Assembly (NCBI GenBank): GCA_048882325.1
Contig: JBHLRS010000028.1
Span: 1 to 21,578, forward strand
Length of the DNA stretch: 21,578 nt
DNA from: Candidatus Thorarchaeota archaeon
Lineage (GTDB): Archaea > Asgardarchaeota > Thorarchaeia > Thorarchaeales > Thorarchaeaceae
Reading direction: 5' to 3'
This document shows, in pieces, positions 93-18,598 of the stretch; position 1 is the stretch's first letter; each line of letters opens with the position of its first letter. The position numbers and the translations under genes are program-made. The notes under the pieces were generated by a model. That model had not been told where the DNA came from. It was given only the letters and a program-made list of their open reading frames with translations, and did not search any database.

Positions 93-1094
93 TTGCTGAA
101 GTTGGAACGAAATCAAGCAGCCGCTCTCATTGTTGTGGCAGTTGTTATCGGCTCAGTCGCTCTTGTAGCTTTTTGGAACCCTGCTCCTGTACCTGACGTT
201 CGGATAGGGTACTTATCGAAGGACCTCCACCAGTTAGCCCTCCGAGTGGCACTTGAGAATGGTTACTTTGAAAGAGAGGGTATCACAGTTGAGTTGTTGC
301 AGTATGGCAATGGTGGATATGAGATGGACGGATTCCAATCTGGTCAGATAGATATGGGATACCTTGGAGCGGCTCCAGCAATCACCAAGCGTCTAAATGC
401 TGAGATTATGGTCACGATCCTTGCTGCAGCAAATATGGAGGGATCGGCTATTATGGTGGATAAGACCGAATACGAATTGGGTCATGTCACCTCCGTTGCA
501 GACCTCGCTGGCAAAGGAGTCTTCCATCCTGGACTCCCGACTGTTCAAAACTTTCTCCTACGGTTAGCATTAAACCAGTCGGGCTTGTCTTATGAAGACA
601 TCAATCCTCTTCAGGCATTTCCATCAGCCATGGCGGATTCACTCACTCCTGAGAATCCTGCTTTCATTGCGTGGGAACCGTTCAATGCATTGTCTGAATA
701 TCAAAACAAGACCGTACCTCTCATACTCTCTGGAGATATCTGGCCGGGTCATCCCTGTTGTGTTGTAGCAGCAGACAATACATTCCTCAGTGAGAATCCA
801 GAAATAGTCCAGAAGGTTGTTCAGATTCACCAAGAGGCAACGGATTGGATTGTCACTCATCCCACTCAAGCGATAGCGATTGCAGTGGACTGGCTTGAAA
901 TGGACCTCGAACCAGTAACAACCGCATTCAACAGGATCATATTTGACTACAACGTGAATGTGACTGGAATCGAGATGTATCTTGATTTCCTGATATCAGA
1001 GGGTCAGATTGATAATATCCCTCCGAGTATACCTGATTTTCTTGATGGATTCATCAACCAGACATATATTGAAGAATCTCTACTCTGTTGTTAA
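93..1094 (+). CDS. ABC transporter substrate-binding protein, NitT/TauT (SsuA/CmpA/NrtA-like)
   Basis: N-terminal hydrophobic anchor, VRIGY, GQIDMGYLG.AP, AFIAWEPF and WPGHPCCV motifs; adjacent to a permease. TTG start. Confidence 0.9.
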   Translation: MLKLERNQAAALIVVAVVIGSVALVAFWNPAPVPDVRIGYLSKDLHQLALRVALENGYFEREGITVELLQYGNGGYEMDGFQSGQIDMGYLGAAPAITKRLNAEIMVTILAAANMEGSAIMVDKTEYELGHVTSVADLAGKGVFHPGLPTVQNFLLRLALNQSGLSYEDINPLQAFPSAMADSLTPENPAFIAWEPFNALSEYQNKTVPLILSGDIWPGHPCCVVAADNTFLSENPEIVQKVVQIHQEATDWIVTHPTQAIAIAVDWLEMDLEPVTTAFNRIIFDYNVNVTGIEMYLDFLISEGQIDNIPPSIPDFLDGFINQTYIEESLLCC

Positions 1095-1141
1095 AAGCGA
1101 CAGACAGAAAAGCAGGACTAAATCTGGCATGATTGAGAAGA

Positions 1142-1981
1142 ATGACAGAGGTAGTCAATGGACCGCATGAAGACATCCAAGCAGATAATAATCCAGAACC
1201 ACAAAGGTCTCCTACTTCAGCACTGAAATACATCCTTCTGAAAATCATTCTTCCTGCAGCCGTTCTGATTATACTCTGGTTCTTGATAGCTGAAATTGCT
1301 CGTTCTACTCTCACTGAAGTGATTGATGCCTTCATTAGACTAGTAGTGGTGGGTGACAGTGAAGGGTATTATCTAACTGATCATATTAGTCTGAGCTTGT
1401 TTCGTGTTGCAATCGGTTTTGTTTTCGCTAGTCTTACTGCTGTACCTCTTGGAATAGCTATTGGCAGATATCGTGCAGTTGATGCAATACTCAATCCAGT
1501 TGTCGAGGCAATGCGTCCCATCCCTCCAATCGCATGGATTCCTTTGGCAATTCTCATGTTCTCTCGTAATCTACTTGGAGCTCAGGTATTCATTATCTGG
1601 GTTGGTGCATTTTTCCCAATTTTGATTAATACCACTACCGGGGTGAAACGAACAGAACCTGTGCACATAGATGTCGCAAAGACATTCGGTGCTGGAGAGG
1701 GTACAATTCTCAGGAAAATTGTATTACCATCAGCAGGACCCGAGATTTTTGCGGGTTTCAGAATCGGATTCGGTATAGGGTGGATGTGTCTGGTCGCAGC
1801 CGAGATGATTGGCGGAGGACTTGGTCTTGGCTATCTCATTCTGATAATGTGGCAGGTCGGAAGGACTGGCGCAGTAATTGTTAGTATGTTGATGATTGGT
1901 TTGATTGGCTTCATCTTCAGCTACTTCTTTCTCTTCATGGAGAAACGACTACTTAGATGGAGGCAGACTGTTTCTGTCTAG
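1142..1981 (+). CDS. ABC transporter permease, NitT/TauT (SsuC/TauC-like)
   Basis: SLFRVAIGF, RPIPPIAWIPLAIL, EAA-like loop (DVAKTFGA...IVLPSAGP) and LVAAEM motifs; multiple TM helices. ATG 1142 preferred over TTG 1133. Confidence 0.92.
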   Translation: MTEVVNGPHEDIQADNNPEPQRSPTSALKYILLKIILPAAVLIILWFLIAEIARSTLTEVIDAFIRLVVVGDSEGYYLTDHISLSLFRVAIGFVFASLTAVPLGIAIGRYRAVDAILNPVVEAMRPIPPIAWIPLAILMFSRNLLGAQVFIIWVGAFFPILINTTTGVKRTEPVHIDVAKTFGAGEGTILRKIVLPSAGPEIFAGFRIGFGIGWMCLVAAEMIGGGLGLGYLILIMWQVGRTGAVIVSMLMIGLIGFIFSYFFLFMEKRLLRWRQTVSV

Positions 1982-2753
1982 TTCGATTCATTGCTTTCTC
2001 CTGCTCCACCTTAAGTAGGTCCAGGATATCTCTGCGATATGCAAGGCACTCCTGTGACGTCCGAATCCTAGGTTTGGGAATTTCAATCTCGTACTCTGCT
2101 ATGATTCTCGCAGGGATGTTGCTCAGTACAAGAATCCGCTCTGACATGAAGACCGCCTCATCAACATTGTGCGACACAAAGAGAATGGTTGATCCCGTTC
2201 TCTTTTGGATCCGCAGAATCTCCTCCTGAAGGTAGTTCCTGGTCTGAGCATCTAAGTTGGACAAAGCCTCATCAGCAACCAGAATATCTGGAGAAACAAC
2301 GAGACTACGAGCCATTTCGGTCTTTCTTGCCTGCCCACCAGAAATCTCATGCGGATAGTTGTCCTCCAGATCTTCCATTCCAACTATCTTGATTATTTCA
2401 TCTACTCTCGTATTCATCTCATCCGGGTCGACCTTTGCTATCTCTAGGCCAAACTGGATATTTTGCCGTACGGTCCGCCAGGGGAACAATGATTCCTGCT
2501 GGAAAATGTAACCCACACGATTGTGGCCTGTATGAACCTCTTCCTTGTCAATAAAGACCTGCCCTTCATCTGGTTCTAGAAGACCTGCAATAATCTTCAA
2601 CAGAGTTGTCTTCCCACAACCACTTGGTCCAACAATACCTAATAGTTCACCTTCATGAACATCGAATGAGATGTCATCCAGGACATGAATTTCTTCATCA
2701 GAGTCGCCATTCGGGTAGGATTTTGACAGGTTTCGAACTGAGAGTTTTGGCAT
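1953..2753 (-). CDS. ABC transporter ATP-binding protein, NitT/TauT (SsuB/TauB-like)
   Basis: Walker A GPSGCGKTT, Q-loop FQQESLFPWRTV, signature ISGGQ, Walker B LVADE, H-loop VSHN. Start taken at ATG 2753 (MPKLSV). Confidence 0.93.
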   Translation of the reverse strand: MPKLSVRNLSKSYPNGDSDEEIHVLDDISFDVHEGELLGIVGPSGCGKTTLLKIIAGLLEPDEGQVFIDKEEVHTGHNRVGYIFQQESLFPWRTVRQNIQFGLEIAKVDPDEMNTRVDEIIKIVGMEDLEDNYPHEISGGQARKTEMARSLVVSPDILVADEALSNLDAQTRNYLQEEILRIQKRTGSTILFVSHNVDEAVFMSERILVLSNIPARIIAEYEIEIPKPRIRTSQECLAYRRDILDLLKVEQEKAMNRTRQKQSASI

Positions 2754-2939
2754 TGTTGCTACCAATCAATCTGGTTTCTCTCATTCTGTTAAATGCTGTG
2801 CTCTTGACACGTACATAATGAGTGGTGAGGTCAACCCAGCAAAGTAAAAAAAGGCCCCTGATGCAATCAGTATTTGTATTAGGCACTGTAATTAGTAGTT
2901 GAAATCATAAACGCCAATTACAACAGGAAGGTTGCTGAC

Positions 2940-5243
2940 TTGGGTTCACCGAAAGTTCTGTTCGAGATCGAGGATGACGAGAGCACCAGTGCAATTGCAG
3001 TGGGAGATGTTACTGGGAACGGATCCGCCGAGCTATGTACTGGCGGACGTGATGGAGTTCTTCGTCTATATGATGCAAATAGAAGTGAGATTGCCTTTCT
3101 CGCACAACACGATGTTGGAGGAAGTATTCTCTCCATCAAGATTGCAGATGCAAACAATGATGGGCAGATGGAACTCGTCATCGGTCGTGCAGTCGGAACT
3201 GGTGAGAATCCTGGTGAGGCTGGAACTGTGCAGATATACCGTTACGCTCCAAGTGGTCAGCTTGAGATTCTAGCTCAGTATCCAGTGGACCGGTTTGTCA
3301 CAACCGTCTACGTCACTGATGTCACTGGGGATGAGAAGAACGAAATTCTTGTTGGCGGTAGTGATTCTACCCTTAGAATTCTCCAGATGGACTCTGCAAA
3401 CAACCTTACAGAGTTTGTGAAGCACCAGTTGGAAGACATGCCTATTGCTATTGGGACCTGTGACGTCATTGGTGATGAGATTGAGGAGATTGTCACAGGA
3501 AATAGAGACAAGACTCTCAGGGTGTTTAAAGTTCGTGACCATTCTGTGGAACAGATAGAACTCATTCAACTACCCAGTCCTGTGATCTCTGTTGCTGCAG
3601 GCGATGTGCTGGGCGACAGAAAGATGGAGCTTGGTGTAGTCACTCATGATGGATCAATTCGAATCTATAGAAACGAAGAGAGCAAACTCGACCTGTTCTC
3701 GAAACTTGAGAACGTGAATGCGCTCTCAGTCCGCATCGAGGAGCTCAACGCAGACCATCAGGATGAGGTCGTTGTCGCTACATCAGACTTCAAAATAAAC
3801 TTCTATAGCCTACACATGGCAGATCTCAATAAGATTGCTACTGTGGACATTGGTAAGAAGATTCTCGCCATCAATGTTGGTGATGCTGGAGGCGATGGTC
3901 GAAAAGAGGTTCAGGTTGGCATATCCGATGGTCCCCTCCGAGTCATTGAAGGTCTTTACAAGATCATTCCAACCTTCGAGGTGAGCCCCGAAACAAAGAC
4001 CGGTGCTGAACTCAGCGGAAGGGTCACAGTTTACAATGTCAGCGACCAAATCATCAACGGTGTGTCTGGGAAGATATACTGGTTCCCAAAGGACCATATG
4101 GATGTCGACCCACAACAACTACGTTTTGACTTAGCCCCGGGTGAGAAAAAGTTCCTTGATGTCAAATTGACACCCAGAGAAGAGGGTACAGTCATCGTTC
4201 GACCTATTGTTCTGATGTGGACAGACCCCTCCGGTCAGGTCCGCCAGGTCACAACACCGGAGACCGCTATCCTTGTTGAGAAGGGTGCAGCTGTCGCGGC
4301 CCCTGCTGCAGTTGCTCCGGTACCTGTAGAGCCTAAAGAGACCTATGAACCCCCTGTTGTGAAGGAAGAGTCCCCATTTGGTCCGGTGGTTGGTACCGGG
4401 TTTGGAAGTCCTGGAGACCGTGAGAAAGCTTCTGAGATTTTGCAGACCACAATGTCTGATGATGCTGCTGACTCGTTGAAAGCTGCTGAGGAACTTCTTG
4501 ACCAACTCTTTGGTGCTGAAGAGACCAGCTCAGCTATGGCTGAGATTGATGACATAGAGGCGCTCGCAGCTGAGCCAACCCCTGAGGAGGTTGTGGTGAC
4601 TGCTGCAGTTTCAGATGTTGAGAGTCAGCTGGTCTCAGAGATACGGACTAGGAGACCTAAAGCTCCACAGCCTGGAACTGCTCCAGATTCTTACCAGTTC
4701 TTATTCAAGACGATGGTGATCGGTGAGGGTGCTGTTGGAAAAACCACTCTTGTGAACAGATATGTCACCGGAGTCTTCGAACGTGATTATAAAACGACCA
4801 TTGGATCTCAGTTCGCAGTGAAGCTCGCCCACATCTCGCCACCTGAGAAAGAGTACGCGACTGGGATCAAACTACAAGCCTGGGACGTGGCAGGCCAAGC
4901 GCGTTTCAAGGCGGTACGTAAGATGTATTACTCAGGAGCGGCTGGTATCATACTGGTGTTCGACGTGACCCGGCGTCGTTCCTTTACGGAGTTGTCGAAG
5001 TGGGTGCAGGAAGCTGATGAGTCGATCGGCACGAGAGTCCCGATGATCTGTGTGGGTAACAAGACAGACCTGCCAGACCGTGCAGTACCCTCAGATGAGG
5101 CAAAGCGTTGGGCTGAAGACCAGGGATTCTTATACATGGAATCCTCTGCAAAGACTGGAGATGGCGTAGCGGACATGTTCACAGTGCTGGCTGAGGTCAT
5201 GTGGCGGGAAGCTCGTAAGCTCCAAGAAGGAAAGAAGACATAG
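2940..5243 (+). CDS. Fusion protein: 7-bladed FG-GAP-like beta-propeller + Ig-like beta-sandwich + acidic/Pro-rich linker + C-terminal Rab-like small GTPase
   Basis: Seven ~45-aa repeats with D-x-x-[GNA]-[DN]-x-x-x-E cores (aa ~1-338); beta-rich domain aa ~339-449 (VTVYN...DLAPGEKK...P.EEG); low-complexity aa ~450-584; GTPase aa ~585-767 with G1 GEGAVGKT, G2 TTIG, G3 WDVAGQ, G4 NKTD and G5 SAK. Confidence 0.9.
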   Translation: MGSPKVLFEIEDDESTSAIAVGDVTGNGSAELCTGGRDGVLRLYDANRSEIAFLAQHDVGGSILSIKIADANNDGQMELVIGRAVGTGENPGEAGTVQIYRYAPSGQLEILAQYPVDRFVTTVYVTDVTGDEKNEILVGGSDSTLRILQMDSANNLTEFVKHQLEDMPIAIGTCDVIGDEIEEIVTGNRDKTLRVFKVRDHSVEQIELIQLPSPVISVAAGDVLGDRKMELGVVTHDGSIRIYRNEESKLDLFSKLENVNALSVRIEELNADHQDEVVVATSDFKINFYSLHMADLNKIATVDIGKKILAINVGDAGGDGRKEVQVGISDGPLRVIEGLYKIIPTFEVSPETKTGAELSGRVTVYNVSDQIINGVSGKIYWFPKDHMDVDPQQLRFDLAPGEKKFLDVKLTPREEGTVIVRPIVLMWTDPSGQVRQVTTPETAILVEKGAAVAAPAAVAPVPVEPKETYEPPVVKEESPFGPVVGTGFGSPGDREKASEILQTTMSDDAADSLKAAEELLDQLFGAEETSSAMAEIDDIEALAAEPTPEEVVVTAAVSDVESQLVSEIRTRRPKAPQPGTAPDSYQFLFKTMVIGEGAVGKTTLVNRYVTGVFERDYKTTIGSQFAVKLAHISPPEKEYATGIKLQAWDVAGQARFKAVRKMYYSGAAGIILVFDVTRRRSFTELSKWVQEADESIGTRVPMICVGNKTDLPDRAVPSDEAKRWAEDQGFLYMESSAKTGDGVADMFTVLAEVMWREARKLQEGKKT

Positions 5244-5280
5244 CAGACTTAGGATTCAATTCTTCAGGGTCTGAAACAAA

Positions 5281-5868
5281 TCACTTCAGAAAACGCACGC
5301 CCTCATCGAAGGCAGTCTGGTCCCGATCATTGTCAAGGATTTTGGAAACAGCTTTCTTGAGGTTCTTAGCCTCGAGTGGTCCTGTGTCAACAGTACTAAG
5401 CACTCCAATCATGAATGAGTTCAGGATCCTCGTTGAACCTAGCTTCTCCAGGACTGGTTCAGTGTCGAGCATATGCACCTCTCTGCAGAATGACTCTAGT
5501 TCCCTTTTGATGTCATCAATCTCTGGGTATGTGAAGTCTCCTGAGGTGACATTTGCGGGTGGAACTGGCATGGAACTCACAATCGCGACAGTCCGTTCAC
5601 CTGCATATCTCGTCGCTGCACGTAGCGCCTCAACTGGCTCAAAACCAAGAAGTACGTCCACATCTCCCCGTGGAATAAGAGGTCCCCAGTCCTGTGTTCC
5701 TATCCTGATGTGAGTCATCACACTGCCTCCACGACGCGAAGCACCAAATGTGTCACCTACGACGGGTCGGAGGCCCTGCATTACGGCGGCCTCGGCGATA
5801 ATCCTGCCACAGACAAGGTTCCCCTGTCCACCAACACCCGCGACCAGTATGGAATAGGGGTCTCTCAT
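5281..5868 (-). CDS. iorB: Indolepyruvate:ferredoxin oxidoreductase beta subunit
   Basis: AGVGGQG, GASRRGGSVMTHIRIG and LLGFEPVEALR motifs. The ATG at 5868 overlaps the iorA stop (TGATG); 195 aa. Confidence 0.9.
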   Translation of the reverse strand: MRDPYSILVAGVGGQGNLVCGRIIAEAAVMQGLRPVVGDTFGASRRGGSVMTHIRIGTQDWGPLIPRGDVDVLLGFEPVEALRAATRYAGERTVAIVSSMPVPPANVTSGDFTYPEIDDIKRELESFCREVHMLDTEPVLEKLGSTRILNSFMIGVLSTVDTGPLEAKNLKKAVSKILDNDRDQTAFDEGVRFLK

Positions 5869-7715
5869 CACTCGCCCTCCACAATAGCACTGTATGGACA
5901 CACAGCAATGCATGCCCCGCATCGGACACACACATGATTCAACACAACTGGATAGTTGGTCTTTTGGTCCCAGCTCAAGGCTGGACATCCAAATTCACGA
6001 GCGCAGATCTTGCAGTCCTCCCCTCTACATAGTTTCCGGTCTATCTTGACAGGAATGGAACCAACAAAACCTGGTTGCCTTTTGACTTCCTCAAGTCGAC
6101 ATACACTGTCCAAAAGCAAGACCTTCAGTCCATCACGCTTTATTGTTGAGTGAAGAAGGTCTGTGAGTGATCTGATGTCGGTCGCATCACCAGTAGCATA
6201 GAAATCAGGTTCTACTGCTCTGACTAGGTCCTCAATCTTGACAATTCTGTGGTTTTCTTGGTCCCTCGAACCAGGGTGCACCTGAAACCCTGTCATAGCA
6301 GTGGTTGCATTGTCGAGGATGACAAATGTCAGGTCTGCATTCTTGTGACGTGCGTTTATGAGACCTGGAATGCATGCATGGAAGAAAGTGCTGTCTCCTG
6401 CCAAAGCTATCACTTTCGAATCAAACCCGAACCTCTGGAGCTGGCCCAGTCCACTCCCCACGCCTATGCCAGAACCCATTGCCTGCATTGTGTCCATAGC
6501 TTCATCATAGAATACACCCAAAGAATAGCACCCAATGTCTCCTGCAACAACAACCTTTCCACCTAACCGTTTCTTCACGGTACGAATCGCCCAGTAGAAG
6601 TTACGATGGGTACAACCTGCGCAGAACGTGAGTGGTCTTTCAATAAGCAGGTCTGATGAACGATGCTCTCTTTTCACGACATTATCGTGTCCAGTCAATT
6701 TTGCCAATGCAGTCAGGACTAGATCTGTGTTCATTTCACCATATCCACGAATGTGTCCTGTCCTCTTCCCATAGAAATGCGGAGTTACCTCAATCTCTGC
6801 TGATAGCGACCTGATGGCATCCTCAAGAAATGAATCATTCTCCTCGATGAACAGAATGCGGTCAACGCCTTGAATCACGTTGGAGATCATCCTGCGTGGT
6901 AATGGAAACGTTGTGACAATATTCATGTGACCAATTTTGATTGGTGCCAGAGACCGAATTGCCTCCTGTGTGTACAGAGAACTTATCCCACTTGAGATAA
7001 CAAGGAGCTTCGTATCTGTGATGTTTGGCATCGAATTGAACTGAATCTTCTCAAAGTCGTTTGCGACATTCTCCAGCTTTTCGAGAAGTTCTCTGTGCCT
7101 TAGGTGAGGGGTTGGTACATTATAGAGCCTCTCAGGTAAATTTCTGGTCCTCTTTTTCTCCTTTGAGACCTTGCCAATACGAATCAGTCCCCTGGAGTGC
7201 GATAGTCGGGTTGTACTTCGAATAAGAACCGGGACTTCATACTTCTGAGAGAGGTTGAAGGCTTCTCTCGTGACATCCTTAGCCTCTTGGTGGGTTGATG
7301 GTTCGAGCAGAGGAATCTGAGCAGCTCTGGCGTAAAACCTGGAGTCTTGTTCGTTGCTGGAACTGTGACCTCTCGGATCGTCACAGACCGCAATCACTAA
7401 TCCTCCCTTTCCAGAGCCAGAGAGATTCAGATTGAGTAAAAAATCTGAGGCCACGTTCAGACCGAGTGACTTCATCGAGCATAGAGCTGGAATCCCTGCC
7501 CAGCTTGCAGCCGCTGCAGCCTCCATTGCCACTTTCTCATTAGTGGACCATTCAACATGAATATCATTTTCTGAAGCATAGCGGAAGAGTGTCGTGACTA
7601 TTTCTGTCGAGGGGGTTCCAGGATATGATGCGCAGAATCCAACACCCGCTTCCAATGCACCTCTTGCAATGGCTTCATTGCCACTCATGAGAACATCATG
7701 CTTGGGTCCACTCAT
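5868..7715 (-). CDS. iorA: Indolepyruvate:ferredoxin oxidoreductase alpha subunit
   Basis: GNEAIARGA, YPGTPSTE, WSTNEKVA, DDP..HSS.NEQD, FCAGCTHR, GDIGCY, TPP motif GDSTFFH...LDN, and a C-terminal ferredoxin-type Cys cluster (CVRCGACIAVCP). Confidence 0.95.
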   Translation of the reverse strand: MSGPKHDVLMSGNEAIARGALEAGVGFCASYPGTPSTEIVTTLFRYASENDIHVEWSTNEKVAMEAAAAASWAGIPALCSMKSLGLNVASDFLLNLNLSGSGKGGLVIAVCDDPRGHSSSNEQDSRFYARAAQIPLLEPSTHQEAKDVTREAFNLSQKYEVPVLIRSTTRLSHSRGLIRIGKVSKEKKRTRNLPERLYNVPTPHLRHRELLEKLENVANDFEKIQFNSMPNITDTKLLVISSGISSLYTQEAIRSLAPIKIGHMNIVTTFPLPRRMISNVIQGVDRILFIEENDSFLEDAIRSLSAEIEVTPHFYGKRTGHIRGYGEMNTDLVLTALAKLTGHDNVVKREHRSSDLLIERPLTFCAGCTHRNFYWAIRTVKKRLGGKVVVAGDIGCYSLGVFYDEAMDTMQAMGSGIGVGSGLGQLQRFGFDSKVIALAGDSTFFHACIPGLINARHKNADLTFVILDNATTAMTGFQVHPGSRDQENHRIVKIEDLVRAVEPDFYATGDATDIRSLTDLLHSTIKRDGLKVLLLDSVCRLEEVKRQPGFVGSIPVKIDRKLCRGEDCKICAREFGCPALSWDQKTNYPVVLNHVCVRCGACIAVCPYSAIVEGE

Positions 7716-7838
7716 ACTATCCAGCTCGGGAATACAGCCACTGTGCCTTCACAAAACACTTTCGAATTATCATAACAAGTCGGGATACCCTACGGGAAGA
7801 TAAAATAAGCCTACTATTATCTCGATGGATGAGCGTAT

Positions 7839-8912
7839 ATGCCTGTAGAACGAGAAAGCGAAGCAAAGACCAAGAAGATAACATCCCTCCTCTCAATCTC
7901 TCACGACAAGGATGTCGATGGATTAAACGCTGCCGCTATTGTTTGGAGATATGCAAAGGCAAAAGGTCTCGACTTCAAGGCTATGCTCACTGACTATGGT
8001 TCATTCGAACAAGTTTTCTCAGCTATAGGCAATCAACGTGACACCCTCATTATCATCACAGATCTTGGCATGGATGATACCATCATCGATTTTGTGGAAA
8101 CAGGACTGACCAGAGCCATCTCTCAGGGTTGTCGCATAGTATGGCTTGACCATCATCAGTGGACAGACCGTTCAATCAAGATGATCCTCTCTCTCGAAAA
8201 CAAACCAGTTTTGAAGGTCAATCACGAGTTCTGTGCAGCCGAGATAGCTCACAAGGTCCTTATGCCACGAGATGAGGTGTGTACTGAACTAGCTAGAATC
8301 GCGCATGACACGGACTTCAACCTCCGCGAGATTGAGGCTGCTACTGCACTCACTGATGCTGTGAGCGTCATCCGCTTTGGAGCAATCGATAAGAAAGAGG
8401 ATGTGACTGATGCACTATACCCGGTTCTCTCAAAGTTGGCTGAGAGTGGAATGAGTGGAGTCTGGGACAGCAATGCCCGTAAATTCAAAGACACACTTCT
8501 TCACAAACGCGTTGAGAACTACAGAAAAGAGAAGACCAAGAAGATGAGAAAGGCCCTAGCTGGTCATAACGACCAGGTCATCCACGGGAAGCTTGTAAGA
8601 ATTGTAGAGATCCCCAGTGGCCTTACTTCAACTGATATGGGTACGTTTGCTTCGAATCCAGAAAACTTGACATCAATTGATCCTGAGCTTATGGTTGCTG
8701 ACCTCTTACTCTCCCTGAGTCAGGGAGGAATGCTTGGTTTCAGACGAGGTCGGGATGGCGTTCTGTGTAATGCAGCTGCTAAGTTGTTCAATGGAGGTGG
8801 GCACCCATATGCAGCGGGTGGTGAGTATGGTCTCTATGAAGACTTTCAAGCAGTCAGTGCTGATATCTTCCTAACACTGTCAAAAAGCAAGGCATGGGTT
8901 TCTGAAGCTTAA
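7839..8912 (+). CDS. DHH/DHHA1 family phosphoesterase (NrnA/RecJ-like)
   Basis: Motif I HDKDVDG, motif II ITDLG, motif III WLDHH, CAA/HDTD, and DHHA1 GGGHPYAAG. Confidence 0.88.
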   Translation: MPVERESEAKTKKITSLLSISHDKDVDGLNAAAIVWRYAKAKGLDFKAMLTDYGSFEQVFSAIGNQRDTLIIITDLGMDDTIIDFVETGLTRAISQGCRIVWLDHHQWTDRSIKMILSLENKPVLKVNHEFCAAEIAHKVLMPRDEVCTELARIAHDTDFNLREIEAATALTDAVSVIRFGAIDKKEDVTDALYPVLSKLAESGMSGVWDSNARKFKDTLLHKRVENYRKEKTKKMRKALAGHNDQVIHGKLVRIVEIPSGLTSTDMGTFASNPENLTSIDPELMVADLLLSLSQGGMLGFRRGRDGVLCNAAAKLFNGGGHPYAAGGEYGLYEDFQAVSADIFLTLSKSKAWVSEA

Positions 8913-9874
8913 GCTGCTGGGCTTTCATGCGTCATTTGCTTTATGATATCCAGAATATCAACACTTGTTTCCCATAATTCGTCAAATGTCTTGAGTGCAT
9001 CATCAAGAAGACCAGGGTTGTCCTTTCTGTGTATAAGTGCAGCCACGTCTGACTCCTTTGCATGAGTTAGATAAAGTAACATCTTGTCTTCATTGAGGCT
9101 TACAATTCTATATGTATTGACAGGTTCCGGTGAGATTCTCAGACCTATGTTTCCTGTTTGCGCAGCCTGTTCGAAGGCTTTTGCCATAGGCATTAGATGC
9201 CTTGCCATTATTTCAAGATCAAGTTTGTCTTGTGTGTGAGGAGTTAAAAGACCCAAGACCTTTACTCCACGAAAACCAGCCTGAATGAGTCGTAGCTCGG
9301 TCACACCACCGGGACCAAGTCCTTCGGCTAATGTACTGGTATGACCGAGGACTCTGACAACATCCCCGGGTTGAGCTCCGTCTGCAAATTCCCTGATGAT
9401 GGTGCTTCTTACGTTCTCCACACCCTCGATAATTCCTGATTCTTCAATTGATGACACGCCAGCTAGTTGCTTGTGTAACATGAGTGCGAGATCTTGACTC
9501 TTGACAAATCTTAGTCGATTCATCATCGTTGTCAGTTCCTGTCTCCGTTCAAGACTCTCTGACAATCTTTCTTTCCGTTTCACTTCAAGAGCATTTGCTA
9601 CACTGGATTCTACAACTGCATAAGTCCTTGGAGAATGGATGTCATCTATAACAATTAATCCGCTCTCTTCCAGGTCTCTCAACCTTCGATAGATGTATGC
9701 CTTCGTGAATTTCTTGTTCGCCAATGACTCGAAACTGGCGGCAATCTCAGTGTAATTCACATACTTGTCCGTTCCACCAGCAGCAAAAAGAACTGCACGA
9801 AAAACTTGCATCTCGCTTGAATCCATATCTATTCCAATTTTCTCAAGATTGTTTTGGAACTTCTTGGTTGTCAT
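8909..9874 (-). CDS. TrmB-like regulator paralog 3 (wHTH + coiled coil + PLD-fold-like effector domain)
   Basis: HTH YTEIA...KAYIYRRLRDLEESGLI, PRTYAV wing, heptad segment, and C-terminal NPGLLDDALKTFDELW. Start reassigned to ATG 9874 (MTTKK), behind a GGTG site and just after the upstream stop; 321 aa. Confidence 0.7.
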   Translation of the reverse strand: MTTKKFQNNLEKIGIDMDSSEMQVFRAVLFAAGGTDKYVNYTEIAASFESLANKKFTKAYIYRRLRDLEESGLIVIDDIHSPRTYAVVESSVANALEVKRKERLSESLERRQELTTMMNRLRFVKSQDLALMLHKQLAGVSSIEESGIIEGVENVRSTIIREFADGAQPGDVVRVLGHTSTLAEGLGPGGVTELRLIQAGFRGVKVLGLLTPHTQDKLDLEIMARHLMPMAKAFEQAAQTGNIGLRISPEPVNTYRIVSLNEDKMLLYLTHAKESDVAALIHRKDNPGLLDDALKTFDELWETSVDILDIIKQMTHESPAA

Positions 9875-9878
9875 TTTC

Positions 9879-10823
9879 TTACACCTTATATTGCAACAAG
9901 TCAGTGCCCTGTTCAAAGTCTGCATCGAAACTATCAATCGCGTTATCGACCAATTCCACATTTCCGCTTCTTGGTAACCATGTAGCTGATAATGGACTCT
10001 CTGAAACAATTAGCACTATGCCATCACGATTCCGGCTCAGGAATTGATACGTAGCATCAGGTCGCGGGAATACCTTATACTCAACAATTCCACCACTGTC
10101 AGTAAATCTCTTAACTATCTCTCTCATACCCGGGCGAAACCCATTTTCTCCCCTATCGTGGTCAAGAGCTCGTAACACTATACCTTTCTTCAAAGCATTC
10201 TCGATGTTGAGTACTCTCTTTGAGCTTAGATAATCTATCTGAGACAACCACTCAAGTTTTATGCGAACAACATCTCCTTTCTTGAGATTGTTCCATATCG
10301 TACTATCAAGTAGTTTCAGGATGTTGTCCCATCCTTGAGCAAAGACTGGTTTCTCGATCCTCTTGTCCCCAGCTGAAAAATCAATCAATCCTATAGCCAT
10401 CTGGTCGGTGTTCATCTCTGATAACAATGTCACTTCATTATCAATTTCTCTCAGCCCTTTTTCCATTTCCTTGAGATTTTGAGTCACAATTCTTGCCAAT
10501 GCCTTCTCCAACAAAGCTATGCTAGAGTTGTATCCATGTTTGTGACCACCTTTGTCAATCTTGAGAAATCCATCCTTTTCCAGTTTCGAGAGAGTTCTGT
10601 ATATGAGCGGGTCTTTACCTTTTCTGGAACCTTCCTCTTTCTCAAGTTGCTCACGGAGTGTTTCGAAATCGACAAAGTCTGTAGGCTTTTTCTGAGCCTT
10701 GAGGAGCGCCCCAAGAATTACCATGTCTTTTCTGGTCTTGTCTAATCCAAATGTTTCAAGTAACTCCTCATGTCTTGACTCAGTTGCCACTCGTGTGTCC
10801 CCCACTCTCACTAATTTACCCAT
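9879..10823 (-). CDS. TrmB-like regulator paralog 2
   Basis: FETLRE...PLIYRTLSKLEKDGFL wHTH, coiled coil, and C-terminal ATWLPRSGNVELVDNAIDSFDADF. ATG 10823 follows GGTGA and overlaps the upstream stop by 8 nt. Confidence 0.7.
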   Translation of the reverse strand: MGKLVRVGDTRVATESRHEELLETFGLDKTRKDMVILGALLKAQKKPTDFVDFETLREQLEKEEGSRKGKDPLIYRTLSKLEKDGFLKIDKGGHKHGYNSSIALLEKALARIVTQNLKEMEKGLREIDNEVTLLSEMNTDQMAIGLIDFSAGDKRIEKPVFAQGWDNILKLLDSTIWNNLKKGDVVRIKLEWLSQIDYLSSKRVLNIENALKKGIVLRALDHDRGENGFRPGMREIVKRFTDSGGIVEYKVFPRPDATYQFLSRNRDGIVLIVSESPLSATWLPRSGNVELVDNAIDSFDADFEQGTDLLQYKV

Positions 10824-11844
10824 TTTCACCTTGGAACAGCTTACTAATTAGTCCTCCGGGTTCCCCTCCCAGAGCCTGAATCTCCTCTGGTTTCAGGTCT
10901 AAGAACGACTTTGCCTTCTTCCAATCCCTATCAAAAGCCTTGACTGCATTGTCAATCAAATCAGGATTGAACTCTCTTGTGATCCATGTGGCTGTCACAG
11001 GATTCTCTGCGATTATTAATGCCATATTGTCATTGTTCAGACTTACTTGATTGTATGTTTTTGGCCCTGAATATATGCGAAAGTCAATCTTCAATCCTTT
11101 CCTCTTTAGATCTACTATAGAGCGTAGAACTCTTCCCGCTCTCTCGAAGTCGACTTCGCGTTGTAAAAGGCCTCCCATCTTGAATATCTCGGTTGACATA
11201 AGGTATCTGACATCAGTCCCTCTGATTGCGGCATCTAGAAACTTCTGTGTCCGATCAAGAATACCATGGTCTAAGAATGGCCCAAACCAAAGCATTGTTG
11301 CTCTTATTATGTCTCCCTTCTTTGCCACATCTAGCATATTGTACTTGAGCACCCTGTGGAGTTCGTCAACCCCCCTCACAATTCGTGAACTTATCTTCTG
11401 CTGGGTCCCTGTGACATTCTTGACTAACTGCTGGGCAAGATCACCGCATTCTAAATTATTGATGAGCTCTAAGGTTTCATCAATCTCCGCTTTCTGTGCT
11501 TCTAGTTCCTTGATTCTTTTGCTCTTGAGCTGCTCCAACCCCGCCATGACAGTGTTAACATCTGCGATGTAGCGTTTACGAGTTGAAGTTGGACTCTCTA
11601 ATCTCACCAGCTGAACATCCACCAGAGACTTTAGCACTCTGTGTATCCACGCCTTTGTCAGCTTTGATTTTGGGTTCTCTCTCAGTAACTCGTCGTAGAT
11701 ATCTCCAAACGTTAAGGGGATTGGTGGATCAGATTGCAGCTTGAGAATGACAGTCAGCAGGTTCATTAGTCGTGACTCTTGCCGTTCTCCTGTTGTAAAT
11801 CCGCATAGCTCTAGGGCTCTTATGACATCAATCTCTTCCGACAT
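10816..11844 (-). CDS. TrmB-like regulator paralog 1
   Basis: TFGDIY...KAWIHRVLKSLVDVQLV wHTH, RKRYIA wing, coiled coil, RGTDVRYL, and C-terminal ATWITREFNPDLIDNAVKAFDRDW. Start taken at ATG 11844 (MSEEID). Confidence 0.72.
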   Translation of the reverse strand: MSEEIDVIRALELCGFTTGERQESRLMNLLTVILKLQSDPPIPLTFGDIYDELLRENPKSKLTKAWIHRVLKSLVDVQLVRLESPTSTRKRYIADVNTVMAGLEQLKSKRIKELEAQKAEIDETLELINNLECGDLAQQLVKNVTGTQQKISSRIVRGVDELHRVLKYNMLDVAKKGDIIRATMLWFGPFLDHGILDRTQKFLDAAIRGTDVRYLMSTEIFKMGGLLQREVDFERAGRVLRSIVDLKRKGLKIDFRIYSGPKTYNQVSLNNDNMALIIAENPVTATWITREFNPDLIDNAVKAFDRDWKKAKSFLDLKPEEIQALGGEPGGLISKLFQGENG

Positions 11845-11916
11845 CGCACATGTTCCTTCTACCCACCTTTGGGTACTACTTAAAAACATCGGTTTACTAA
11901 CTTTATGACTGTATAC

Positions 11917-11941
11917 AACCGCACCATATATATATGTGGTT
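11917..11941. promoter_or_regulatory. TATA element (ATATATATA) bracketed by inverted repeat AACCGCA/TGTGGTT; candidate ncRNA promoter and operator
   Basis: AACCGCA-CCATATATATA-TGTGGTT (1 mismatch between arms); the TATA lies ~25-30 nt upstream of the first hairpin at 11959. Confidence 0.5.
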
Positions 11942-11958
11942 AACCCTGTTAAGAATTA

Positions 11959-12111
11959 GGCAGCTGTCCGCTGCTAACTCCGGGTGGATGCTTCACGGTA
12001 ATCCACAACGGGCATGATACAGGGCACGCCGGGAATCACCCCGGCCATGAAGCAGGGTGGCGCGGGGGGGTGTCCCCTGCTTCTACTCCGTGATTCTCTC
12101 TCACCTTTTTT
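11959..12111 (+). ncRNA. Candidate structured non-coding RNA (~150 nt, four hairpins), family unknown
   Basis: GC-rich intergenic island with stems at 11959-11975, 11984-12006, 12028-12045 and 12049-12083. Extension of three stems needs G.U pairs available on the + strand. Upstream TATA and downstream T6 (12106-12111). Confidence 0.6.
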
Positions 12112-13339
12112 AAAGACCGCTCACAGCGATTGCTCGAAGGTAGCCCACACCGATCTTCATCACCATGGGGAGGAAGTCTGACATGAGGGTCATGATGGTC
12201 CCGATGCTAGCGTTCCCCTGAATAAGCTCGTTTAGGGTTCGTGCATCCAGCTGTGCTAGCACGATCTCCGCAGCCGCAATCGGATCGTTGAACATAGCGT
12301 ATTTTGACACAGCCCACATACCCTTACCCGTATTAGTGATGTTGTTGGCTAGTTGCGTCTTTCTATACTCTTTCTCGTACTGCTCCACACTCTTCTTCGA
12401 GAAGTCGCCTGAGTCTACCATCCGTTTTGCATGCTTGGCTAGTACCTGACCAGCATGAAAACAGGTTGTCACGCCTCCGCCCACAATGGAAGAAACTTGG
12501 CCAGCTGAGTTGCCGCACAACGCAACTCCAGTATCAGTGAACTTTGGTATGATTCCAGCGCAAGGTACAACTCCACCGTTGACCGCTGCAATCTTTGCAT
12601 TCTGGGTTTCAGGGTGTGTCTTCATGTACTTCTTCAGGACGTCCTTCATTGGTGGAAGGGCATGCCAATTGGCTTTTGATGAAGGGACCCGGCCAATTCC
12701 GAGATTAATCTCTGACTCAGATCTCGGGTACAACCAGAGGTAACCGAGGCCAACATCCTTGCCAACGTAGAAGTACGCGACATCTGGATCGATTCCTTTG
12801 CAACCTGTCAGCTTGAATCTGTACCCATAGCTGAGTAGCCATTTTGGATGTGTGAATCCAGCAGTCTCAGAAACCCTGCTGAATGCACCATCAGCTCCAA
12901 CTGTTAAGCTTGCCCGTTCTTCCTCCGTCCGATTGTACTTGACACCTACAACAGACTTGCCCTCCTTGATAACTGAACCTACATGAGACTTGTATCTGAA
13001 CTCAGCACCATCGGACATAGCACGGTCTCGCATGAGTTCCTGACACAGATTCTCATCGAAGAGGTATGAGTTCCCAAGAAGTGATCTATCGACTACAATG
13101 TTGGACCCGGTGTCTAGACTCTCGCCAATAATCGAGGTATACTTGTTCCCAATAAACTCCGAGTCTGGCTTGACCCTCAACAGTCGCAGGGCCTTGTCAG
13201 TGACTAACTCTCCCATGAGAGAAGAAGTAACATCCTTACGCTTCTCCAGCACAAGAGTCTTGAGGCCATATCTGGCTGTGTGTTCAGCAGTCATGAGTCC
13301 AGCTGGACCTGTCCCAGCAACAATCACATCGTAAGTCAT
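12110..13339 (-). CDS. Geranylgeranyl reductase family FAD-dependent oxidoreductase
   Basis: YDVIVAGTGPAG Rossmann motif, VGADGAFSRV, GYLWLYP (GGR YxWxFP-like) and GNSAGQV...GGG. Start ATG 13339 (alternative GTG 13372). Confidence 0.85.
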   Translation of the reverse strand: MTYDVIVAGTGPAGLMTAEHTARYGLKTLVLEKRKDVTSSLMGELVTDKALRLLRVKPDSEFIGNKYTSIIGESLDTGSNIVVDRSLLGNSYLFDENLCQELMRDRAMSDGAEFRYKSHVGSVIKEGKSVVGVKYNRTEEERASLTVGADGAFSRVSETAGFTHPKWLLSYGYRFKLTGCKGIDPDVAYFYVGKDVGLGYLWLYPRSESEINLGIGRVPSSKANWHALPPMKDVLKKYMKTHPETQNAKIAAVNGGVVPCAGIIPKFTDTGVALCGNSAGQVSSIVGGGVTTCFHAGQVLAKHAKRMVDSGDFSKKSVEQYEKEYRKTQLANNITNTGKGMWAVSKYAMFNDPIAAAEIVLAQLDARTLNELIQGNASIGTIMTLMSDFLPMVMKIGVGYLRAIAVSGL

Positions 13340-13474
13340 CGTATGGTGCTCCGTGAAGATACTCGAGTCCACTATGTATCATCTATATCTCTTTCTGAGT
13401 GGTCTTGCCTCGTGCCAAACCTATAATACAAAGTCAAAAGAGGAGGCGAGAATAGTCTTCCAGAAGGGTTGATA

Positions 13475-18154: not shown

Positions 18155-18598
18155 TTGAATGACAAGCGCGGTCTCGATTTTGCTATTGGCACTGATATAG
18201 TAGAGATTGATAGGTTTCGCAATCTTGGATCGGAATCTCCCTTCTATCAGCGCGTCTTTACCGAGAGAGAGCTAGCATACTGTCACCGGTTCCCTGATCC
18301 CGCTCCTCACCTAGCCGCTACTTTTGCAGGAAAAGAAGCCATAGTAAAAGCCACAAATTCAAATTGCAGAGCAACAATTAACACAATCGAGATATTGCGG
18401 GATGAAGATGGCGCACCAGTTGTGGAGCTTTTTCAACCCAGCAATCATGACATATACGTGAGTCTTGCCCACTCATCAACTCATGCTATAGCTGTTGCGC
18501 TTGCAGTTAACAGGTCATATACAATGAATCTGAATGAGATCAAAGGGATATTGGAAAGAGCGGGGACAAAACTCCTCCCCAGGAGAGATGTTTCATGA
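18155..18598 (+). CDS. acpS: Holo-ACP synthase (AcpS-type 4'-phosphopantetheinyl transferase)
   Basis: IGTDIVEIDRF, RVFTERELAYC, LAATFAGKEAIVKA, GAP and VSLAHS motifs; ATGA overlap with the next gene. Confidence 0.92.
   Translation: MNDKRGLDFAIGTDIVEIDRFRNLGSESPFYQRVFTERELAYCHRFPDPAPHLAATFAGKEAIVKATNSNCRATINTIEILRDEDGAPVVELFQPSNHDIYVSLAHSSTHAIAVALAVNRSYTMNLNEIKGILERAGTKLLPRRDVS

What the first reader, a model, noticed from the sequence alone, without database searches (positions are those of the whole stretch)
2940..5243. Single-chain coat-like propeller + Ig domain tethered to a Rab-like GTPase (BBSome/KICSTOR-like module in an archaeon)
Seen: seven blades with Ca-blade-like loops (DVTGNGSAEL, DANNDGQMEL, DVTGDEKNEI, DVIGDEIEEI, DVLGDRKMEL, ELNADHQDEV, DAGGDGRKEV), most followed by a WD-like G..D..(L/I)R(I/L/V) hairpin. 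A ~110-aa beta-sandwich, a ~135-aa disordered linker and an intact GTPase follow. There is no signal peptide or TM helix, so this FG-GAP propeller is cytosolic, unlike typical secreted prokaryotic ones. Established: cytosolic FG-GAP-type propellers occur in BBS2/BBS7 (propeller followed by a GAE Ig domain) and in ITFG2/KPTN, and these complexes work with small GTPases. From memory, the blade DVTGDEKNEILVGGSDSTLRIL closely resembles BBS2/BBS7 blades; this needs checking. Inference: a Rosetta-stone fusion linking a proto-coat/tether subunit with its regulatory GTPase, a candidate precursor of eukaryotic trafficking complexes.
Basis: partly seen in the sequence, partly recalled or inferred. Interest (0 to 1): 0.88.

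Follow-up and report, generated by a model that had tools for sequence, protein, structure and literature searches.

The report
Thorarchaeal propeller-Ig-Rab fusion protein
This is a real, strongly conserved gene of Thorarchaeia (Asgard archaea) that ties a Rab-type GTP switch by a long acidic leash to a cytoplasmic seven-bladed propeller and an Ig-like domain. Its likeness to the eukaryotic BBSome and KICSTOR propellers is genuine but weak and shared with other prokaryotic propellers, so it does not show ancestry.

Summary
It has no signal peptide, TM helix or prenylation Cys.

The fusion is not an assembly artefact. It is single-copy in 77 of 85 genomes of the window's own family and in the one sister-family genome. 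It was not found in about 313 other Asgard genomes, and it sits in a conserved gene block.

The BBS/ITFG2 idea is partly borne out. BBS2 and ITFG2 are the two best solved-structure matches, and the family profile hits ITFG2 at E 6e-9. Three results limit this:
- 56-78% of unrelated prokaryotic FG-GAP proteins hit the same BBS/ITFG2 Pfam models, often more strongly.
- Predicted bacterial FG-GAP/VCBS propellers superpose better (TM 0.84-0.90 against 0.75).
- The Ig domain is generic.

No GTPase partner genes are linked to it, and the domain-docking prediction gave no verdict.

My best reading is a self-contained GTP-switched scaffold. A proto-coat ancestor remains a minority possibility.

This scan has already found the same family in other Thorarchaeial genomes. 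I found no paper that describes this architecture.

The parts
2940..5243 (+). Whole gene: 767-aa propeller-Ig-linker-Rab-like GTPase (TTG start, stop at 5241-5243)
   Evidence: More than 120 full-length 90%-identity clusters of 765-826 aa. Open frames of about 770-800 aa in 78 genomes.
2940..3953 (+). Seven-bladed FG-GAP-class beta-propeller (aa 1-338); blade loops at aa 23, 70, 127, 175, 222, 268, 315
   Evidence: Pfam FG-GAP_3 63.8, Beta-prop_BBS7 60.3, BBS2_Mid 52.5, Itfg2 30.1 bits. AF2 pLDDT 92.5. Fold searches. Motif positions.
3954..4286 (+). Ig-like beta-sandwich (aa 339-449)
4287..4694 (+). Acidic, low-complexity linker (aa 450-585); the 133 residues aa 453-585 have net charge -18
   Evidence: Composition. 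Median identity 46% across the family, against 74% for the propeller and 90% for the GTPase.
4371..4406 (+). Conserved linker motif 1, SPFGPVVGTGFG (aa 478-489)
   Evidence: Conserved in most of the 20 Thorarchaeial sequences of alignment A1.
4473..4514 (+). Conserved linker motif 2, amphipathic helix-like SLKAAEELLDQLFG (aa 512-525)
   Evidence: E517 is invariant. L513, A516, L519, L520, D521, L523, F524 and G525 are at least 90% conserved.
4620..4676 (+). Conserved linker motif 3, ES.LV.EIR.R.PK.P.PG, just upstream of the G domain (aa 561-579)
   Evidence: E561, S562, R571, K574, P578 and G579 are at least 90% conserved.
4695..5210 (+). Rab-like small GTPase domain (aa 586-757): G1 595-602, G2 T620, G3 649-653, G4 707-710, G5 736-738
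   Evidence: Pfam Ras 156.3 bits, Roc 106.8 bits. PDB: Thor-Rab 7EZB E 3.7e-43, Rab14 8e-40, Sec4, Rab11. Motifs invariant across the family.
5211..5240 (+). Short basic C-terminal tail (…RKLQEGKKT) without Cys

Best explanation
A cytoplasmic, single-chain, GTP-switched scaffold specific to Thorarchaeia.

Shown:
- A catalytically complete Rab-like G domain is joined to a seven-bladed FG-GAP-class propeller plus an Ig-like sandwich.
- The join is a roughly 133-residue acidic, disordered leash that carries three conserved short motifs.
- All parts are under strong purifying selection.
- The gene is single-copy and near-universal in one Asgard order.

Inferred:
- The propeller and Ig domain form a protein-binding platform.
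- The G domain cycles between GTP and GDP states.
- In one of those states the G domain, or the linker motifs (above all the amphipathic helix at aa 512-525, the kind of element Rab effectors use to grip the switch regions), folds back on the platform or on the G domain itself. The nucleotide state would then gate access of outside partners.
- In effect this is a small GTPase permanently tethered to its own effector or adaptor module. The tether may replace the lipid anchor and separate effectors that eukaryotic Rabs use.

I take the propeller to be a diverged member of the prokaryotic FG-GAP propeller class that was recruited to the cytoplasm. It resembles BBS2 and ITFG2 at class level only.
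For: - Architecture and models.
- Intact, invariant G1-G5 motifs and Rab-type motifs (DSY.FLFK before G1, IGSQF, KLQAWDVAGQ, YYSGA, LVFDVT).
- Domain identities across genera: median 90% for the GTPase, 74% for the propeller, 68% for the Ig domain, 46% for the linker, with three conserved islands inside the linker.
- Single copy in 77 of 85 family genomes and in the 1 sister-family genome, always as one frame of about 770-800 aa.
- A 42%-identical relative (P0123) keeps the same architecture.
- It is the only one of about 22 clear small-GTPase paralogues in this genome fused to a propeller; most of the others lie in open frames of 171-243 aa, one in a 360-aa frame.
- No signal peptide or TM helix.
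- No hit to any defence-system model.
- Solved precedents exist for small GTPases working on this propeller class. ARL6-GTP binds the BBS1 propeller (PDB 4V0M, a top-10 Foldseek match). KICSTOR, which contains ITFG2, is solved bound to GATOR1 (PDB 9O5A); that GATOR1 is the GAP of the Rag GTPases is from my own knowledge.
Against: - No direct evidence links the G domain to the propeller or Ig domain beyond covalent linkage.
- No partner, GEF, GAP, roadblock or longin gene is nearby. The conserved neighbours are an ABC transporter, a 2-oxoacid:ferredoxin oxidoreductase, a DHH protein and a geranylgeranyl reductase.
- The role of the linker motifs is inferred from conservation alone.
- Nucleotide binding, hydrolysis, expression and localisation are all untested.
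Confidence: 0.45

Rival explanations
1. Targeting-module reading. The propeller-Ig module is only an address tag that fixes the unprenylated Rab-like domain to a cellular structure, such as a membrane protein or the cytoskeleton. The G domain then recruits effectors in trans, with no intramolecular switching.
For: There is no C-terminal Cys, only a short basic tail. Archaeal Rab-like GTPases lack the prenylation machinery (Tran et al. 2024, PMC10933270). The long flexible leash would let the G domain search a volume around a fixed anchor.
Against: It does not explain why three short motifs inside the leash are conserved. No candidate anchor is known.
Confidence: 0.25
2. First reader's reading. 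This is a Rosetta-stone fusion of a proto-coat or tether subunit that is specifically homologous to the BBS1/2/7/9 or ITFG2/KPTN propellers, joined to its regulatory GTPase. On this view it is a relic of the precursor of the eukaryotic BBSome or KICSTOR-type complexes.
For: - BBS2 and ITFG2 are the two best solved-structure matches.
- Family profile against the PDB: ITFG2 5.9e-9, BBS7 1.6e-4, BBS2 2.8e-3. The alignment to ITFG2 is in register from the N-terminus.
- A canonical bacterial VCBS propeller hits CRTAC1 instead, and no BBS or ITFG2 chain.
- Another Asgard cytosolic propeller (P0149) also has ITFG2 and BBS7 as its best PDB hits.
- A 2026 preprint lists one structural cluster exclusive to Asgard and eukaryotes, annotated BBS7/ITFG2 (doi 10.64898/2026.10.28.762692).
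Against: - The BBS and ITFG2 Pfam models are hit as well or better by 56-78% of unrelated prokaryotic FG-GAP proteins.
- Prokaryotic FG-GAP/VCBS proteins are much closer in sequence (about 100 bits) and in predicted structure.
- The margin over ordinary WD40 propellers is only about 2 Z units.
- The Ig domain is generic.
- The gene was not found outside one order, including the roughly 313 other Asgard genomes searched.
- The coiled-coil, platform and hairpin modules of BBS2/7/9 are absent.
- No GTPase gene lies next to the unfused Asgard propellers inspected.
Confidence: 0.12
3. Built-in regulator. The propeller acts as a tethered exchange factor or GAP for its own G domain, as the RCC1 and Sec12 propellers are GEFs for Ran and Sar1.
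For: Only by analogy, from my own knowledge of RCC1 and Sec12. Covalent tethering of the two modules is conserved.
Against: Neither RCC1 nor Sec12 appears among the 50 best structural matches. A permanently tethered GEF would tend to defeat the switch. The intact catalytic Gln653 suggests ordinary hydrolysis.
Confidence: 0.1
4. Sensor-type signalling or defence NTPase, with a propeller as ligand sensor and a GTPase as output, as in Roco or STAND-like proteins.
For: Pfam Roc scores 106.8 bits. Propeller sensor domains are common in prokaryotic signalling NTPases (own knowledge).
Against: There is no COR or other output domain in Pfam and no PADLOC hit. The gene is single-copy, near-universal and syntenic, with 90% G-domain identity across genera. 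That is typical of a housekeeping gene, not a defence gene.
Confidence: 0.04
5. Artefact or extracellular adhesin: a chimeric assembly, or a secreted FG-GAP/CARDB protein wrongly joined to a GTPase gene.
For: FG-GAP plus Ig (CARDB, FixG_C, HYDIN-like) is a common secreted prokaryotic architecture.
Against: The same single frame is present in 78 genomes and in more than 120 protein clusters from independent samples. There is no signal peptide or TM helix.
Confidence: 0.01

Closest known systems
Thor-Rab (PDB 7EZB/7EZD/7EZE; Tran et al. 2024, Commun Biol, PMC10933270) and other Asgard Rab-like small GTPases
   Same: The G domain is the best PDB sequence match (E 3.7e-43, about 45-50% identity by eye from the printed alignment) and has the same Rab-type motifs and no prenylation site. 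This genome's nearest paralogue is a stand-alone gene in a 194-aa open frame, 53% identical.
   Different: Thor-Rab is a 182-aa stand-alone protein and a paralogue, not this gene. The paper describes GTPase fusions to longin and roadblock domains but contains no mention of a propeller. The G domain here has a 4-residue insert before the KLQ.WD strand.
BBSome propeller subunits BBS1/2/7/9 and their GTPase ARL6 (PDB 6VBU, 6VOA, 4V0M)
   Different: Identity is 14-16%. The same Pfam models are hit by most prokaryotic FG-GAP proteins. There is no coiled coil, platform or hairpin. The GTPase here is Rab-like, not Arl-like, and is covalently attached.
KICSTOR subunits ITFG2 and KPTN (PDB 9O5A, 9V6E and related entries)
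   Different: The Pfam Itfg2 score is marginal (30.1 bits against a cut-off of 27). SZT2 and KPTN partners were not examined. ITFG2 has no Ig domain and no GTPase.
Prokaryotic FG-GAP/VCBS propellers, often combined with CARDB, FixG_C or HYDIN-like Ig domains (mostly secreted)
   Same: They are the closest non-family relatives by sequence (E 1e-25 to 1e-11, 25-33% identity). They are also closest by predicted structure (TM 0.84-0.90) and by language-model features. They share the same D-x-x-x-D-x-x-x-E loops.
   Different: Those proteins are usually long, multi-propeller and carry export-linked domains such as dockerin, SLH or TcdB_mid. This one is a single cytoplasmic propeller with a weakened FG-GAP_3 signal (64 bits, against 100-230) and is fused to a GTPase.
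Unfused Asgard cytosolic propellers (the P0149, P0129 and P0145 family, about 500-800 aa, with winged-helix-like C-termini)
   Same: The propeller class is the same, and their best PDB hits are also ITFG2 and BBS7. They have no signal peptide and are near-universal and single-copy in their own lineage (114 of 135 genomes of family f22).
   Different: They are only about 30% identical over part of the propeller, have a different C-terminal half and no GTPase. None of the 85 other Thorarchaeial-family genomes nor the window's own genome has a match to the P0149 propeller. No GTPase gene is adjacent.

Membership tests
Ras-superfamily small GTPase, Rab-like | Pfam Ras domain above the gathering score, with intact G1-G5 motifs | tested here: met
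   Ras 156.3 bits against a cut-off of 21.6. GEGAVGKT, T620, DVAGQ, NKTD and SAK are invariant in 21 sequences.
Ras-superfamily small GTPase, Rab-like | Rab proteins are the closest solved relatives, and Rab-family motifs are present (YDYLFK-type N-terminus, IG..F, KLQ.WD.AGQ, YY.GA, LV.D.T) | tested here: met
   Top PDB hits are Thor-Rab, Rab14, Sec4, Rab25, Rab11, Rab2 and Rab1. The motifs were read directly. No tree was built.
Ras-superfamily small GTPase, Rab-like | C-terminal Cys prenylation motif of eukaryotic Rabs | tested here: not met
   The C-terminus is …RKLQEGKKT, with no Cys in any family member.
FG-GAP-class seven-bladed beta-propeller | Pfam FG-GAP_3 or FG-GAP repeats above cut-off, and seven four-stranded blades | tested here: met
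   FG-GAP_3 63.8 bits and FG-GAP 23.1 bits. The model has 28 strands and pLDDT 92.5. Seven loop motifs are present.
BBSome propeller subunits (BBS1/2/7/9) | Match to the BBS propeller models and structures | tested here: met
   Beta-prop_BBS7 60.3 bits and BBS2_Mid 52.5 bits, against cut-offs of 27. BBS2 is the top structural match.
BBSome propeller subunits (BBS1/2/7/9) | The match is specific, that is, stronger than for unrelated prokaryotic FG-GAP propellers | tested here: not met
   42, 34 and 30 of 54 control proteins hit BBS2_Mid, BBS7 and Itfg2 at E <= 1e-5, with best values of 1e-37 to 1e-39. Bacterial FG-GAP models superpose better.
BBSome propeller subunits (BBS1/2/7/9) | Downstream coiled coil, GAE, platform and alpha-hairpin modules (BBS2/7/9), or a GAE domain (BBS1) | tested here: inconclusive
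BBSome propeller subunits (BBS1/2/7/9) | Co-occurrence with the other BBSome subunits (BBS4, BBS5, BBS8, BBS18, ARL6) | not tested
   I did not search the genome for TPR or PH-type BBS subunits.
KICSTOR ITFG2 | Match to the Itfg2 family model and to ITFG2 structures | tested here: inconclusive
Roco proteins (Roc-COR) | COR domain following the Roc GTPase | tested here: not met
   Roc scores 106.8 bits, but the G domain ends 10 residues before the C-terminus and there is no COR hit.
Anti-phage defence NTPases | Match to a known defence-system protein model | tested here: not met
   No PADLOC family at E <= 0.01.

The most novel reading that the evidence does not exclude
The cytosolic FG-GAP-like propellers of Asgard archaea are true homologues of the eukaryotic BBS1/2/7/9, ITFG2 and KPTN propellers. 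These Asgard propellers include the Thorarchaeial one fused to a Rab-like GTPase and an unfused family that is universal in another Asgard family. On this reading the Thorarchaeial fusion preserves, in a single chain, an ancient working partnership between this propeller class (plus an appendage-like Ig domain) and a Ras-superfamily GTPase. That partnership would predate the BBSome-ARL6 and KICSTOR/GATOR-Rag systems.
Probability: 0.12. Interest if true: 0.85.

Novelty: new variant of a known kind. Interest (0 to 1): 0.52.

Why it matters
Asgard archaea carry many Rab-, Arf- and Rag-like GTPases, but almost nothing is known about what those switches act on. Here evolution has tied one such switch covalently to a folded interaction platform, in a gene kept single-copy in nearly every genome of its family.

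That offers a ready-made, experimentally tractable GTPase-plus-partner pair. The questions it opens are whether the G domain or its leash motifs dock on the propeller-Ig module in a nucleotide-dependent way, what the propeller binds, and whether it touches membranes.

The report also sets a caution for claims about eukaryotic signature proteins. Pfam BBS and ITFG2 hits above the gathering score are common among ordinary prokaryotic FG-GAP propellers, so they are not evidence of a BBSome or KICSTOR precursor.

Tried and rejected
- Docking prediction. I folded propeller-Ig (aa 1-452) against linker-helix plus G domain (aa 500-767) with GTP and Mg. The score was 0.00, so there is no verdict and it is not evidence either way.
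- Six-frame search of the window's own genome with the Pfam Itfg2 model found nothing. The BBS7 model found only this gene plus a weak hit in a 2296-aa ORF. None of the 14 control genomes gave a hit, so this was uninformative as a specificity control.
- Looked for partner genes. The immediate neighbours are an ABC transporter, a 2-oxoacid:ferredoxin oxidoreductase, a DHH protein, three unknowns and a geranylgeranyl reductase. They are syntenic in 8 genera, but there is no GTPase regulator among them.
- Looked for split versions near the unfused Asgard propellers P0149 and P0129. No GTPase gene lies within 6 kb.
- Literature. There are no papers holding 'Asgard' together with 'FG-GAP', and nothing relevant for 'BBSome' with 'Asgard'. 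Tran et al. 2024 and Kostlbacher et al. 2026 do not mention a propeller-GTPase fusion in their main text. Their supplements are not held.
- The stand-alone propeller paralogue of this genome gave no PDB sequence hit.
- Extracellular adhesin, misassembly and defence-system readings were rejected.
Full report
WHAT IS THERE

window:2940-5243(+) is a single open frame of 767 codons. It starts at TTG behind an AGGAAGG run. It lies between a divergently oriented ABC-ATPase gene and a convergently oriented 2-oxoacid:ferredoxin oxidoreductase gene, so it is probably transcribed alone.

The protein has four parts.

1. Residues 1-338 carry seven loops of the form [DE]-x-x-x-[DN]-x-x-x-E-[LIV], at aa 23, 70, 127, 175, 222, 268 and 315. 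Six are followed by a G..D..(L/I)(R/N)(I/L/V/F) strand. AlphaFold2 on a 21-sequence family alignment gives a closed seven-bladed propeller (pLDDT 92.5, pTM 0.91).
2. Residues 339-449 fold as an 11-strand beta sandwich (pLDDT 93.5).
3. Residues 453-585 are rich in A, E, P and V, with net charge -18.
4. Residues 586-757 are a complete small GTPase (Pfam Ras 156 bits). It is followed by a short basic tail without cysteine.

There is no signal peptide and no TM helix; the highest 19-residue hydropathy mean is 1.5.

IS THE FUSION REAL, AND HOW WIDE IS IT?

A search of 5.8 billion proteins returned more than 120 clusters at 67-100% identity over the propeller-Ig part. Nearly all are 765-826 aa and carry both the propeller and Ras Pfam domains. 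Most are labelled Thorarchaeota; the shorter ones are flagged partial.

In 400 genomes of the phylum, the gene is present once in 77 of 85 genomes of the window's own family and in the single genome of a sister family of the same order (45% identity). With this query at E <= 1e-20 it was not found in the other roughly 313 Asgard genomes. The open frame is about 770-800 aa wherever the contig allows.

An exhaustive search of 1.8 billion representatives shows the same picture. There are two clusters near 70% identity, a few fragments of the same family, and one full-length cluster at 42% (P0123, same architecture). Then the scores jump down to generic FG-GAP proteins at E 1e-25.

The surrounding block is collinear in eight further genomes, seven of them from other genera. 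Its order is substrate-binding protein, permease, ATPase, this gene, oxidoreductase, DHH protein, three unknowns, geranylgeranyl reductase.

Across the family, median identity to the window protein is 90% for the G domain, 74% for the propeller, 68% for the Ig domain and 46% for the linker. Three conserved islands sit inside the linker:
- SPFGPVVGTGFG, aa 478-489
- SLKAAEELLDQLFG, aa 512-525
- ES.LV.EIR.R.PK.P.PG, aa 561-579

This is a vertically inherited, strongly constrained, lineage-specific gene. It is not a chimera.

THE GTPase

G1 (GEGAVGKT), the switch-I Thr620, G3 (DVAGQ, with the catalytic Gln653), G4 (NKTD) and G5 (SAK) are invariant. The domain also carries Rab-type signatures: DSY.FLFK before G1, IGSQF, KLQAWDVAGQ, YYSGA and LVFDVT.

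The best solved relative is Thor-Rab (7EZB, E 3.7e-43). Next come Rab14, Sec4, Rab25, Rab11, Rab2 and Rab1. Thor-Rab is a 182-aa stand-alone paralogue, not this protein. The paper describing it mentions GTPase fusions to longin and roadblock domains but no propeller.

This genome has about 22 clear small-GTPase paralogues. Most lie in open frames of 171-243 aa and one lies in a 360-aa frame. The nearest is a stand-alone gene (194-aa frame, 53% identical). This gene is the only one attached to a propeller.

THE PROPELLER AND THE BBS/ITFG2 QUESTION

- Pfam Beta-prop_BBS7 (60.3 bits), BBS2_Mid (52.5) and Itfg2 (30.1) all exceed their gathering score of 27.
- Foldseek against the PDB ranks BBS2 first (E 1.6e-15, TM 0.75). 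ITFG2, BBS1, BBS7, KPTN and BBS9 follow, with ordinary WD40 propellers around 1e-12 interspersed from rank 12.
- A profile of the family finds ITFG2 at E 5.9e-9, with the alignment in register from the N-terminus. These come ahead of the bacterial FG-GAP lyase YesW (0.04).
- A canonical bacterial VCBS propeller used as a control hits only CRTAC1.

Evidence against specificity:
- I scanned 54 non-family proteins from the representative search, chosen only for being under about 1000 aa. Of these, 42 match BBS2_Mid, 34 match BBS7 and 30 match Itfg2 at E <= 1e-5. Their best values are 1e-37 to 1e-39, far stronger than this protein's. Several of these controls carry dockerin, SLH or TcdB-mid domains.
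- By sequence, the nearest non-family relatives are prokaryotic FG-GAP/VCBS proteins at about 100 bits. ITFG2 and BBS7 reach only 15-39 bits.
- Among predicted structures of the ESM Atlas, bacterial FG-GAP/VCBS propellers superpose at TM 0.84-0.90 over 331-340 residues. One Asgard cluster does about as well. The comparison is not on equal terms, since it sets predicted against predicted models on one side and predicted against cryo-EM on the other.
- Language-model neighbours are bacterial FG-GAP clusters first (0.88), then BBS2 and BBS1 (0.81-0.83). All are below the level at which such hits count as more than leads.

My reading is that this is a diverged FG-GAP-class propeller that has lost much of the canonical FG-GAP signal (64 bits, against 100-230 in the controls). 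Among solved structures, the cytosolic FG-GAP-like propellers of the BBSome and KICSTOR therefore come out on top. That is a real resemblance of class. Specific common ancestry is neither shown nor excluded.

OTHER ASGARD PROPELLERS

Several of the next-best hits are Asgard proteins (P0129 and P0149 labelled Promethearchaeota; P0138 labelled Helarchaeales). None has a signal peptide.

The P0149 type is single-copy in 114 of 135 genomes of another Asgard family and in 10 of 14 genomes of a neighbouring one. None of the 85 other genomes of the Thorarchaeial family, nor the window's own genome, has a match to it. Its best PDB hits are again ITFG2 and BBS7.

A 2026 preprint lists one structural cluster exclusive to Asgard and eukaryotes, annotated BBS7/ITFG2, and says it matches an existing catalogue of eukaryotic signature proteins. 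It does not mention a GTPase fusion (doi 10.64898/2026.10.28.762692). So the propeller class is already catalogued in Asgard archaea. The Rab fusion is not described in any paper I could search.

No GTPase gene lies within 6 kb of the unfused propellers I inspected. The Rosetta-stone logic therefore has no second leg yet.

THE Ig DOMAIN

Foldseek puts TRAP-beta first (TM 0.79). Behind it come MSP/VAP domains, complement MG domains, the archaeal CARDB domain of PF1109 and, at rank 27, the BBS9 GAE domain.

FG-GAP plus CARDB, FixG_C or HYDIN-like Ig is also a common secreted prokaryotic architecture.

MECHANISM

Shown:
- An intact Rab-type switch.
- A high-confidence propeller and Ig module.
- A flexible acidic leash with three conserved motifs.
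- Cytoplasmic location.
- Strong constraint on all parts.

Inferred (confidence about 0.45): the propeller-Ig module is a binding platform, and the nucleotide state of the tethered G domain gates it. The gating could work through fold-back of the G domain. It could also work through the linker motifs, notably the amphipathic helix at aa 512-525, which is the kind of element Rab effectors use on the switch regions.

Rivals:
- A pure address-tag role for the propeller (0.25).
- A tethered GEF or GAP (0.10).
- A sensor or defence NTPase (0.04). This is disfavoured by the lack of a COR domain, the lack of PADLOC hits and the housekeeping-like distribution.
- An artefact or secreted adhesin (0.01).

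VERDICT

The gene is a new domain-architecture variant of the known Asgard Rab-like GTPases, built on a propeller class already catalogued in Asgard archaea. It is confined to Thorarchaeia and is of moderate interest, mainly as a tractable GTPase-plus-platform pair.

Earlier follow-ups of this scan examined the same family in other Thorarchaeial genomes (e1-4832082, e1-5236719, e1-5383552, e1-2878382). I re-derived each point above independently.

Noticed in passing
G000:C3:99995-100711 (L002:1207-2214, minus strand): The same genome has a stand-alone 335-aa propeller paralogue (E 2e-10 to the fused propeller, 24% identity) without a signal peptide. It has no PDB sequence hit and no GTPase gene next to it.
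   Followed up: partly
Other Asgard genomes, e.g. G162:C1:276274-277353; L020:6001-7482: An unfused propeller family of about 500-650 aa (P0149 type, with a winged-helix-like C-terminus) is single-copy in 114 of 135 genomes of another Asgard family. No Thorarchaeial-family genome has a match to it, so its distribution complements that of the Rab fusion. Its best PDB hits are also ITFG2 and BBS7.
   Followed up: partly
window 93-13372: A block of twelve genes keeps its order and orientation in eight further Thorarchaeial genomes, seven of them from other genera, at 22-80% protein identity. The order is NMT1-type binding protein, permease, ATPase, the fusion gene, two oxidoreductase genes, DHH protein, three unknowns, geranylgeranyl reductase.
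   Followed up: yes
window 8909-11889 (minus strand): Three overlapping or abutting genes of 316-366 aa have no Pfam hit at E <= 0.001. They are conserved in position across genera but only 22-44% identical, so they evolve much faster than their neighbours.
   Followed up: no
G000, e.g. C12:83240-83758, C32:16370-16894, C14:5367-7761, C7:6640-7680: The genome encodes about 22 clear Ras-superfamily small GTPases, most in open frames of 171-243 aa. Some occur in tandem pairs (C14, C7, C5). The nearest paralogue of the fused G domain is 53% identical.
   Followed up: no
G000:C12:27258-27728 (inside a 2296-aa open frame): A very long ORF gives a weak match to the BBS7 propeller model (21.6 bits). 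It is probably a multi-propeller FG-GAP-type giant protein.
   Followed up: no
window 18155-20424: The phosphopantetheinyl transferase and FkbH-like genes at the right end of the window had no counterpart in the 20-kb regions taken around the fusion gene in eight other genomes. The conserved block therefore ends before them.
   Followed up: no
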